NCBI RefSeq assembly: GCF_003334315.1 | Contig: NZ_QOWR01000021.1 | DNA from: Escherichia coli | GTDB taxonomy: Bacteria > Pseudomonadota > Gammaproteobacteria > Enterobacterales > Enterobacteriaceae | Length of the DNA stretch: 64,000 nt | Reading direction: 5' to 3' (one strand) | Shown here: positions 145-327 of the stretch, one piece after another | Numbering within the stretch: the stretch's first letter is position 1 | How the letters are laid out: the number at the start of each line of letters is the position of its first letter | Position numbers and translations under genes: made by a program | The notes under the pieces: model-generated | Databases searched by the model: none | Told to the model about the DNA's origin: nothing | What the model saw: only the letters and a program-made list of their open reading frames with translations

Positions 145-327
145 GTCGGATGCGGCGTGAACGCCATATCCGCCCTGGGGTTCTGTACACTGTAGGCCTG
201 ATAAGACGCATTACGCGTCGCATCAGGCAACGGCTGTCGGATGCGGCGTGAACGCCTTATCCGACCTACGGTTCTGTTCACTGTAGGCCTGATAAGACGC
301 ATTACGCGTCGCATCAGGCAACGGCTG
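145..327. repeat. Tandem REP/BIME-type palindromic units (two ~92-bp copies)
   Basis: gtcggatgcggcgtgaacgcc...taggcctgataagacgcattacgcgtcgcatcaggca repeated twice head-to-tail, directly after the trmJ stop. Confidence 0.85.

What the first reader, a model, noticed from the sequence alone, without database searches (positions are those of the whole stretch)
145..327. Tandem duplicated BIME directly abutting the trmJ stop
Two head-to-tail ~92-bp units, each a REP pair in inverted orientation, fill the space between trmJ and the IscR-binding region. The duplication is nearly perfect, differing at a few positions (for example catatccgccctgggg versus cttatccgacctacgg), which suggests a recent or variable expansion. 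It lies between the trmJ 3' end and the iscR promoter and could insulate the two.
Basis: seen in the sequence. Interest (0 to 1): 0.25.

Follow-up and report, generated by a model that had tools for sequence, protein, structure and literature searches.

The report
Known BIME-2 repeat array after trmJ
The two repeats are real, but they are an ordinary and already catalogued E. coli BIME-2 element (paired REP palindromes) whose unit number differs between strains, so this is a textbook repeat polymorphism rather than a new feature.

Summary
Window 144-234 and 235-325 are two head-to-tail 91-bp units with 86/91 identity. The period runs on to base 328, the last base of the trmJ stop codon. Each unit holds a Y-type REP and an inverted Z2-type REP, which is the definition of a BIME-2.

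The K-12 orthologue has three units. A genome-wide gyrase study lists it as BIME-2 "iscR-yfhQ" with gyrase cleavage sites.

Across 5,426 complete E. coli genomes the locus is polymorphic:
- about 2,660 genomes have 1 unit
- about 650 have 2 units, as in the window
- about 660 have 3 units
- 1,433 carry an unrelated boxC-like palindromic repeat instead
- about 20 are other cases

In several other genera the trmJ stop lies directly against the IscR sites with no repeat at all.

The most likely local effects are inferred from the family, not measured here. They are stable 3'-UTR hairpins that protect trmJ mRNA, partial attenuation of read-through into iscR, a REP 8 nt from the stop that may lower TrmJ translation, and a gyrase site. 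The "insulator" idea is plausible by analogy with REP325 but untested.

Novelty: already known. Interest is low.

The parts
144..234 (.). BIME-2 unit 1 (iscR-side): degenerate Y REP, 13-nt tail-to-tail linker region, inverted Z2 REP, short head-to-head linker
235..325 (.). BIME-2 unit 2 (trmJ-side), 86/91 identical to unit 1, with a canonical Y REP
326..328 (.). TGT, the start of a further period; base 328 is the third base of the trmJ stop codon
   Evidence: array 144-328
145..178 (+). Y-type REP, degenerate copy (foot CTGG instead of CTAC; stem G/A mismatch). The trmJ-sense RNA hairpin is -14.6 kcal/mol
192..228 (-). Z2-type REP (GCCTGATGCGACGC-GTAAT-GCGTCTTATCAGGC-CTAC on the - strand). RNA hairpin -21.4 kcal/mol
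236..269 (+). Y-type REP with a CTAC foot. It carries a compensated C-G to T-A pair relative to the canonical Y copies elsewhere in the window. RNA hairpin -17.4 kcal/mol
283..319 (-). Z2-type REP nearest trmJ. The stem starts 8 nt after the stop codon on the mRNA. RNA hairpin -21.4 kcal/mol
195..266 (-). Match to Rfam RF02564 naRNA4 (Y hairpin, linker, Z2 hairpin) spanning the unit junction: 72.2 bits against a gathering score of 59.5
328..1068 (-). trmJ coding sequence (246 aa). Codon 246 and the stop lie inside the strain-variable segment
101..143 (.). Non-repeated spacer between the BIME and the IscR sites, shared by the BIME and boxC-like alleles from GACAACAGGTAC onwards
51..100 (-). Two adjacent 25-nt IscR type-1-like sites of the iscR promoter (76-100 with 1 mismatch to the motif, 51-75 with 3), conserved across about 10 genera
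   Evidence: the motif was recalled from memory (Giel et al. 2006)

Best explanation
Window 144-328 is a two-unit allele of the E. coli BIME-2 array that lies between trmJ (yfhQ) and iscR. It has four REP palindromes alternating Y and Z2. It belongs to the genome-wide REP/BIME repeat family. Unit number changes by recombination between the near-identical units, or possibly by the REP-associated transposase TnpA-REP.

Shown here: its identity, its architecture and the between-strain polymorphism.

Shown by others for the three-unit K-12 allele: DNA gyrase cleaves within it, and does so more when transcription is blocked.

Inferred from the family and not measured at this locus:
(a) The array is transcribed as the trmJ 3' UTR. 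Its four hairpins (-15 to -21 kcal/mol) stop 3'-to-5' exonucleases and so set and protect the trmJ mRNA 3' end.
(b) They partially attenuate read-through into the iscR promoter, without being a true terminator.
(c) The first hairpin starts 8 nt after the stop codon, inside the 15-nt or closer range in which REPs stall terminating ribosomes. It may therefore lower TrmJ synthesis.

The element is best seen as a tolerated, mildly useful repeat in a permissive spot, not as a device built for iscR control.
For: Repeat and palindromes.

Y and Z2 assignment: made by comparison with canonical Y (11521, 21959, 52125) and Z1 (21862, 52028) copies in the same window. It follows the BIME-2 definition in PMC3333891: y plus z2, short linker, tandem copies, and copy number that varies between strains at a locus.

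K-12 orthologue: MG1655 has a 451-nt iscR-trmJ spacer holding three units. It is listed as 'BIMEs2 2662088-2662353, 265 bp, iscR-yfhQ' with gyrase cleavage sites Cfx 3, RifCfx 6, Micro 0 and Oxo 4 in table DS3 of PMC6379681, where most BIME-2s score 0. BIME-2s behave as transcription-independent strong gyrase sites.

Census of 5,426 complete genomes:
- 2 units or fewer: 3,313
- 3 units or fewer: 3,973
- unit1-to-unit2 junction at 99% identity or better: 1,314
- boxC-like allele: 1,433

Recent gain or loss: both single-unit derivatives of the window array exist. PI12 equals the distal unit and strain D9 equals the proximal unit. The window flank equals PI12.

RNA structure: the 245-nt 3' UTR folds at -103.6 kcal/mol, z = -7.4; single hairpins are. 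No intrinsic terminator was found.

Stem-preserving changes between alleles: GGCG/CGCC to GGTG/CACC, and C-to-U changes that leave G-U pairs.

Family functions:
- 3' hairpins and REPs protect Rho-terminated mRNAs (PMC6061677).
- REPs fewer than 16 nt from a stop lower translation (Liang 2015, as summarised in PMC12306157).
- The REP325 BIME-2 stabilises the upstream mRNA and attenuates the downstream gene (bioRxiv 10.64898/2026.03.23.713779).
Against: No expression, stability or read-through measurement exists for this locus.

The Term-seq tables of PMC7815308 list no 3' end in the trmJ 3' UTR, only one inside the ORF. Reads in three identical units may have been unmappable in K-12, so this absence is weak evidence.

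Short arrays of 2-4 hairpins from REP325 showed no Rho dependence.

Copy number from 0 to 3 is tolerated, and some genera have no element at all. Any local effect is therefore likely small.

The stem-preserving substitutions are few, about four events, and could reflect gene conversion from other REPs.
Confidence: 0.85

Rival explanations
1. Dedicated insulator. The array is maintained by selection because it blocks trmJ transcription from running into the IscR-regulated iscR promoter, and more units give tighter insulation.
For: The genes are co-directional and no intrinsic terminator lies between them. Every E. coli allele examined carries some GC-rich palindromic element right after trmJ, either a BIME or the boxC-like repeat. 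REP325 attenuates its downstream gene about 8-fold, and REP-separated tandem gene pairs show upstream-biased expression.
Against: Unit number varies from 1 to 3, and 26% of genomes have a different element. Buttiauxella, Cedecea, Pantoea, Mixta and one Trabulsiella have the trmJ stop directly against the IscR sites, with spacers of 104-145 nt and no hairpin element. Fragments of 2-4 hairpins from REP325 were not Rho-dependent. The iscR promoter itself is invariant while the BIME next to it is the most variable stretch.
Confidence: 0.2
2. Source of a nucleoid-associated RNA. The unit junction encodes a naRNA4-like two-hairpin RNA that binds HU and bridges cruciform DNA, so alleles with two or more units would differ in kind from 1-unit alleles.
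For: Rfam RF02564 matches 195-266 (-) at 72.2 bits against a gathering score of 59.5. [quoted passage not shown]
Against: The model is in effect a description of any Y-linker-Z2 piece of a BIME-2, and the linker here is 6 nt shorter. A 2026 preprint from a group that includes the original senior author found no nucleoid compaction, no stable ternary complex and no HU-dependent REP-REP contacts for REP325 or naRNA4. No evidence exists for a discrete RNA from this locus.
Confidence: 0.05
3. Functionless passenger. The array is a selfish or neutral repeat that sits where insertions do no harm, with no measurable effect on trmJ, iscR or DNA topology.
For: Presence, type and number of elements vary freely within E. 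coli and between genera, and the same spot has been colonised independently by different repeat families. An IS621 insertion into the array is tolerated in strain XH993.
Against: Gyrase cleavage sites are recorded in the K-12 allele, while most BIME-2s have none. Hairpins of -15 to -21 kcal/mol lying 8 nt after a stop codon in a transcribed 3' UTR are unlikely to be inert, given published REP effects. Substitutions between alleles tend to keep the stems.
Confidence: 0.25

Closest known systems
The iscR-yfhQ (trmJ) BIME-2 of E. coli K-12 (MG1655/W3110)
   Same: Same locus, same flanks and the same Y and Z2 units. The window's two units equal the first and last K-12 units. The K-12 element is catalogued as BIME-2 with gyrase cleavage sites.
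   Different: K-12 has three units (451-nt spacer) and the window has two (360-nt spacer).
REP325 (yjdM-yjdN BIME-2, source of naRNA1-6)
   Same: Y/Z2 tandem array between two co-directional genes, transcribed from the upstream gene. The junction here scores above the Rfam naRNA4 gathering threshold. REP325 is reported to stabilise the upstream mRNA and partly terminate before the downstream gene.
   Different: REP325 has 12 palindromes and this array has 4. The head-to-head linker here is 6 nt shorter. The downstream gene here has its own strong regulated promoter. No functional data exist for this locus.
BIME-1 elements (Z1 - L linker with IHF site - Y)
   Same: Built from the same Y REP. 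Two examples lie in this window at 21862-21959 and 52028-52125.
   Different: BIME-1 uses Z1 rather than Z2, has a long linker that often carries an IHF site, and occurs as a single copy. The element here has Z2, a 13-nt linker and tandem copies.
REPs close to stop codons that lower translation (Liang, Rudd and Deutscher 2015; e.g. nrdAB)
   Same: The first REP stem begins 8 nt after the trmJ stop, within the 15-nt limit.
   Different: The effect on TrmJ has not been tested. The original paper could not be read here, so whether trmJ/yfhQ was on its list is unknown.

Membership tests
E. coli REP (palindromic unit) | Imperfect palindrome of 30-40 nt with a GTAG/CTAC tetranucleotide at the foot | tested here: met
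   Four palindromes of 33-37 nt. Three carry CTAC/GTAG (236-269, 192-228, 283-319). The fourth (145-178) has a degenerate foot, CTGG.
E. coli REP (palindromic unit) | Many dispersed copies in the same genome, in extragenic positions | tested here: met
   Queries containing the units hit a median of 9-12 places per genome in 5,426 genomes. Other Y, Z1 and Z2 copies occur in this window. The element lies between the trmJ stop and the iscR promoter.
BIME-2 | Alternating Y and Z2 REPs in inverse orientation | tested here: met
   Y = G(T)CGGATGCGGCGTGAACGCCTTATCCG(A)CCTAC. Z2 = GCCTGATGCGACGC..GCGTCTTATCAGGCCTAC. This is distinct from Z1 (GCCTGATGCGCTACGCTTATCAGGCCTAC) at 21862 and 52028. Definition from PMC3333891.
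BIME-2 | Short linker between the REP pair, not the long IHF-binding L linker of BIME-1 | tested here: met
   13 nt lie between CTAC and GTAG (270-282), and 7 nt between the heads (229-235).
BIME-2 | Tandem copies, well conserved within a locus, with number varying between strains | tested here: met
   Two units at 95% identity. Alleles with 1, 2 and 3 units occur in about 2,660, 650 and 660 genomes.
BIME-2 | Bound and cleaved by DNA gyrase | not testable with these tools
   Published for the K-12 allele only: 3 (Cfx), 6 (RifCfx), 0 (Micro) and 4 (Oxo) cleavage sites in PMC6379681 table DS3.
naRNA4 (Rfam RF02564) | Covariance-model score at or above the curated gathering score | tested here: met
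   72.2 bits against 59.5, E = 1.5e-12, at 195-266 on the - strand.
naRNA4 (Rfam RF02564) | Exists as a discrete HU-bound RNA that affects the nucleoid | not testable with these tools
   No data for this locus. The function itself is disputed by a 2026 preprint.
Intrinsic (Rho-independent) terminator | GC-rich hairpin followed by a U-tract | tested here: not met
   No terminator-like site on the - strand in 1-330. None of the REP hairpins is followed by a T run.
Translation-lowering REPs (Liang et al. 2015) | REP located 15 nt or fewer downstream of the stop codon of the upstream gene | tested here: met
   8 nt (327-320) lie between the TAA (330-328) and the first stem base (319). The rule is as summarised in PMC12306157.
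Translation-lowering REPs (Liang et al. 2015) | Ribosome stalling, mRNA cleavage and tmRNA tagging that reduce the upstream protein | not testable with these tools
   Needs TrmJ reporter or protein measurements with and without the REP and with and without ssrA.

The most novel reading that the evidence does not exclude
Unit number at this locus (0, 1, 2 or 3) acts as a heritable, quickly mutable dial. It would set strain-specific levels of trmJ-to-iscR read-through and gyrase-driven local supercoiling at the iscR promoter, and hence the set point of Fe-S cluster homeostasis. The stop-proximal REP, and the fact that the trmJ stop codon is supplied by the variable cassette, would tune TrmJ output. 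Only alleles with two or more units would encode a complete naRNA4-like module.
Probability: 0.1. Interest if true: 0.4.

Novelty: already known. Interest (0 to 1): 0.1.

Why it matters
It matters little as a discovery. The element is a catalogued BIME-2, and between-strain variation in BIME-2 unit number has been described since the 1990s.

The locus could still serve as a natural allelic series for testing the proposed REP functions in one well-studied setting, just upstream of the autoregulated iscR promoter. The series runs from a boxC-like element through 1, 2 and 3 units on nearly identical flanks. The functions that could be tested are mRNA protection, partial termination, stop-proximal translational damping and gyrase recruitment.

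Tried and rejected
1. Counting 1-unit genomes with a synthetic 1-unit query failed. The tool joined the two pieces in 2-unit genomes, so the count was again 3,313. I replaced it with a junction query read by identity band.

2. The junction query's 80%-coverage count (2,798) is inflated by other BIME-2 loci at 83-86% identity. Only the band at 99% or better (1,314) was used.

3. With the 3-unit query, 1-unit genomes sit at 80-81% coverage, close to the threshold. The figure of 3,973 could therefore be slightly low, but it agrees with the evenly spaced row samples.

4. Liang et al. 2015 and Liang and Deutscher 2016 are not held. The 15-nt rule is cited second-hand.

5. Term-seq evidence for a trmJ 3' end at the REPs was not found. 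The Dar and Sorek supplements are not held. The Adams et al. tables list only an ORF-internal end. Peters 2012 is not held.

6. The single genome-contig scan with a 21-mer from the IscR site returned 26 loci from other genera but no Escherichia, Shigella or Salmonella. The age of the BIME within the genus could therefore not be dated.

7. Strain P276M looked like a deletion but is a frameshift-ridden assembly, so it was ignored.

8. The ORFs across the repeats (for example 108..362 on the - strand, 84 aa) were rejected as REP-encoded noise.

9. The boxC-like 3' UTR as a whole does not fold better than shuffled sequence (z = -1.1). Only its local GC hairpin is notable.

Full report
**What is in the sequence.**
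Tandem Repeats Finder reports a single array at window 144-328: period 91, 2.0 copies, 94% matches, no indels, score 335. The repeat finder places the two copies at 144-234 and 235-325 with 95% identity. The five differences are at 166, 173, 177, 178 and 187.

Each unit holds two imperfect palindromes in opposite orientation. The 246-aa ORF at 328..1068 on the minus strand is trmJ, and suhB follows divergently at 1187-1990. The repeat period continues as TGT at 326-328, so its last base is the third base of the trmJ TAA.

Towards iscR, a non-repeated 43-nt stretch (101-143) separates the array from two adjacent 25-nt IscR type-1-like sites at 76-100 and 51-75. These have 1 and 3 mismatches to the motif, which I recalled from Giel et al. 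2006.

**What kind of element it is.**
The same window holds canonical copies of the E. coli REP types:
- Y: GCCGGATGCGGCGTGAACGCCTTATCCGGCCTAC at 11521, 21959 and 52125
- Z1: GCCTGATGCGCTACGCTTATCAGGCCTAC at 21862 and 52028

The palindromes at 236-269 and 145-178 are Y-type. Copy 236-269 carries a compensated C-G to T-A pair. Copy 145-178 has lost the CTAC foot and one stem pair. The palindromes at 192-228 and 283-319 read GCCTGATGCGACGC-GTAAT-GCGTCTTATCAGGCCTAC on the minus strand, which is the longer Z2 type.

Ton-Hoang et al. define BIME-2 as Y plus Z2 with a short linker, occurring as tandem copies that are well conserved within a locus and variable in number between strains. BIME-1 is a single Z1/Y pair with a long linker that often binds IHF (PMC3333891). 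The element here meets every sequence criterion for BIME-2. The two Z1/Y pairs elsewhere in the window are BIME-1.

**It is already catalogued.**
In MG1655 the iscR-trmJ spacer is 451 nt and contains three units. Its first and last units are identical to the two in the window. Table DS3 of Sutormin et al. lists 'BIMEs2 2662088-2662353, 265 bp, iscR-yfhQ' with 3 (ciprofloxacin), 6 (rifampicin plus ciprofloxacin), 0 (microcin B17) and 4 (oxolinic acid) gyrase cleavage sites. Most BIME-2 entries in that table have none (PMC6379681). That paper concludes that BIME-2s are over-represented among cleavage sites, that Y REPs are cut more than Z2, and that the signal rises when transcription is blocked, so they behave as transcription-independent strong gyrase sites.

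**Copy number across E. coli.**
Representative loci show iscR-trmJ spacers of four lengths:
- 269 nt: one unit
- 360 nt: two units, as in the window
- 451 nt: three units
- 300 nt: no BIME

Counts over 5,426 complete genomes are:
- 3,313 genomes have two units or fewer
- 3,973 have three or fewer, giving about 660 with three
- 1,314 carry the locus-specific unit1-to-unit2 junction at 99% identity or better, giving about 650 with two and about 2,660 with one
- 1,433 carry the BIME-less allele
- about 20 remain, including an IS621 insertion and a poor assembly

Evenly spaced row samples from three searches give the same proportions and showed no allele with four or more units. Any such class must be rare.

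Three observations show that gain or loss is recent:
- The window's flank (328-2020) is identical to the one-unit strain PI12 apart from one private SNP at 485, whereas it differs from K-12 at 22 positions.
- PI12's single unit equals the window's iscR-side unit.
- Strain D9's single unit equals the window's trmJ-side unit.
The last two are the two products expected from loss of one unit or the other.

One-unit alleles of other lineages (ST131 and others) differ at about ten of 91 positions, while the adjacent iscR promoter is unchanged. Changes in the stems are either compensated (GGCG/CGCC to GGTG/CACC) or are C-to-U changes that leave G-U pairs in the trmJ-sense RNA. These are too few events to prove selection on structure.

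**The alternative allele and other genera.**
In the 1,433 BIME-less genomes (O157:H7, O111 and others) the segment between trmJ codon 245 and the shared GACAACAGGTAC is replaced by about 125 nt. This segment contains the palindrome CCCCTCGCCCC-TTCG-GGGGAGAGGG followed by TTAGGGTGAGGGG. The exchange point lies inside trmJ, so the last codon and stop differ: GAA TAA against TGA, giving 246 against 245 aa. This element belongs to a dispersed family with a median of 17 places per genome. That is compatible with the boxC family, reported at 22-32 copies. The name is my recollection and was not tested against a consensus.

A scan of species-representative genomes with a 21-mer from the IscR site gave 26 loci.
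- In Buttiauxella, Cedecea, Pantoea, Mixta and one Trabulsiella strain the trmJ stop lies directly against the IscR sites (spacers 104-145 nt), with no repeat and no terminator.
- Another Trabulsiella strain, an Enterobacter and Klebsiella grimontii have their own REP-like pairs there.
- K. oxytoca, K. michiganensis and K. spallanzanii have GGGAGAGGG-type palindromes.

The spot just after trmJ has therefore been colonised repeatedly and independently by different small palindromic repeats, and it is empty in several genera.

**How it most likely works.**
No step below has been measured at this locus.

*RNA level.* The array lies in the trmJ 3' UTR. In trmJ sense the four hairpins fold at -21.4, -17.4, -21.4 and -14.6 kcal/mol. 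The 245-nt region folds at -103.6 kcal/mol, z = -7.4 against shuffles. None of the hairpins is followed by a U-tract, and the terminator scan finds nothing on that strand.

Published work on the family supports three expectations:
- Stable 3' hairpins, often REPs, mark the steady-state ends of Rho-terminated mRNAs and protect them from PNPase and RNase II (PMC6061677).
- REPs fewer than 16 nt from a stop codon lower translation of the upstream gene by stalling ribosomes (Liang et al. 2015, as summarised in PMC12306157). Here the first stem starts 8 nt after the stop.
- The BIME-2 REP325 both stabilises the upstream yjdM mRNA and reduces read-through into yjdN about 8-fold. Its partial Rho dependence appears only with the full 12-palindrome array and not with 2-4 hairpin fragments (bioRxiv 10.64898/2026.03.23.713779). 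REP-separated tandem gene pairs show upstream-biased expression genome-wide.

*DNA level.* The K-12 allele is a gyrase cleavage site.

I therefore expect protection of the trmJ 3' end, modest attenuation of read-through, a possible damping of TrmJ synthesis, and gyrase recruitment, with effect sizes that are probably small. Term-seq tables for K-12 list no 3' end in this UTR, only a strong one 60 nt inside the trmJ ORF (PMC7815308). Reads in three identical units may simply be unmappable, so this absence carries little weight.

**The Rfam hit.**
Rfam's naRNA4 model (RF02564) matches 195-266 on the minus strand at 72.2 bits against a gathering score of 59.5. The aligned piece is the Y hairpin of the trmJ-side unit, a linker 6 nt shorter than the consensus, and the Z2 hairpin of the next unit. 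The number of such matches equals units minus one: two in MG1655, one in the window, and none in one-unit or boxC-like alleles.

naRNA4 was described as an HU-binding RNA from REP325 that condenses DNA (PMC4550694). A 2026 preprint that includes the same senior author reports no nucleoid effect. I read the hit as another description of BIME-2 sequence, not as evidence for a separate RNA gene.

The identification as a duplicated BIME at the trmJ stop and the suggestion of a recent or variable expansion are both right. The proposed check, copy number across E. coli genomes, gives a clear positive.

The insulator idea matches what has been shown for another BIME-2, but it is untested here. As a selected, dedicated function it is weakened by the free variation in unit number, by replacement of the BIME in a quarter of genomes, and by the absence of any element in several genera.

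**Novelty and score.**
The element is an allele of a catalogued K-12 BIME-2, and BIME-2 copy-number polymorphism is established knowledge. Nothing here would surprise a specialist. The locus-specific census and the observation that the variable cassette supplies the trmJ stop codon are minor additions.

Rating: already known; interest 0.1.

The most novel reading not excluded is that unit number tunes iscR read-through, local supercoiling and TrmJ output in a strain-specific way. I put that at about 0.1 probability, with moderate interest if true.

Noticed in passing
L005 1468-1767 (E. coli 2013C-4225); corresponds to window 144-330: 1,433 of 5,426 complete E. coli genomes (O157:H7, O111 and others) have no BIME here. 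They carry a roughly 125-nt segment with a boxC-like GC-rich palindrome instead (family median 17 copies per genome). The swap point is inside trmJ, so the last codon and stop differ (GAA TAA vs TGA; 246 vs 245 aa).
   Followed up: partly
L036 353-768 (E. coli XH993): An IS621 (IS110-family, REP-targeting) element is inserted at the GTAG/GCC foot of the iscR-side Z2 REP of a three-unit array at this locus.
   Followed up: partly
window 485 (trmJ codon 195): The window has T where all compared strains have A, giving TrmJ L195Q. No complete genome matched window 1-520 better than 99.8%, so this looks like a private non-synonymous SNP. Otherwise the flank equals strain PI12.
   Followed up: partly
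window about 1008, minus strand (K-12 2663263): Published Term-seq tables list a very strong RNA 3' end 60 nt inside the trmJ ORF in K-12, classed as 'internal'. This suggests premature termination or a stable 5' fragment of trmJ mRNA.
   Followed up: no
window 21862-21959 and 52028-52125: Two BIME-1 elements (Z1 REP, long linker, inverted Y REP). The second overlaps an Rfam ES036 (CssrF) sRNA match at 52049-52091 on the minus strand.
   Followed up: no
window 11521-11554 and about 63725-63755: A lone Y REP at 11521-11554, and a truncated Z2-like REP next to the 5S rRNA match (63817-63932, minus strand).
   Followed up: no
L010 vs L018 (two Trabulsiella odontotermitis strains); L009, L026, L027, L030 (Klebsiella): The same spot after trmJ is polymorphic in other genera. 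One Trabulsiella strain has a species-specific REP pair (232-nt spacer) and the other has none (129 nt). Klebsiella species carry GGGAGAGGG-type palindromes or a REP.
   Followed up: partly
L001 534-643, L002 869-978 (iscR-iscS spacer, outside the window): The Rfam iscRS 'iscR stability element' (RF01517) scores 138 bits in the 2- and 3-unit strains but 118-120 bits in the 1-unit PI12 and boxC-like strains. The iscR-iscS spacer therefore also differs between these haplotypes.
   Followed up: no
window 28938-29085, 38265-38341, 41754-41968, 44751-45582: Rfam gathering-level matches to GlmY, ohsC, rncO and AsrC. These are the expected K-12-type features of this chromosome region.
   Followed up: no
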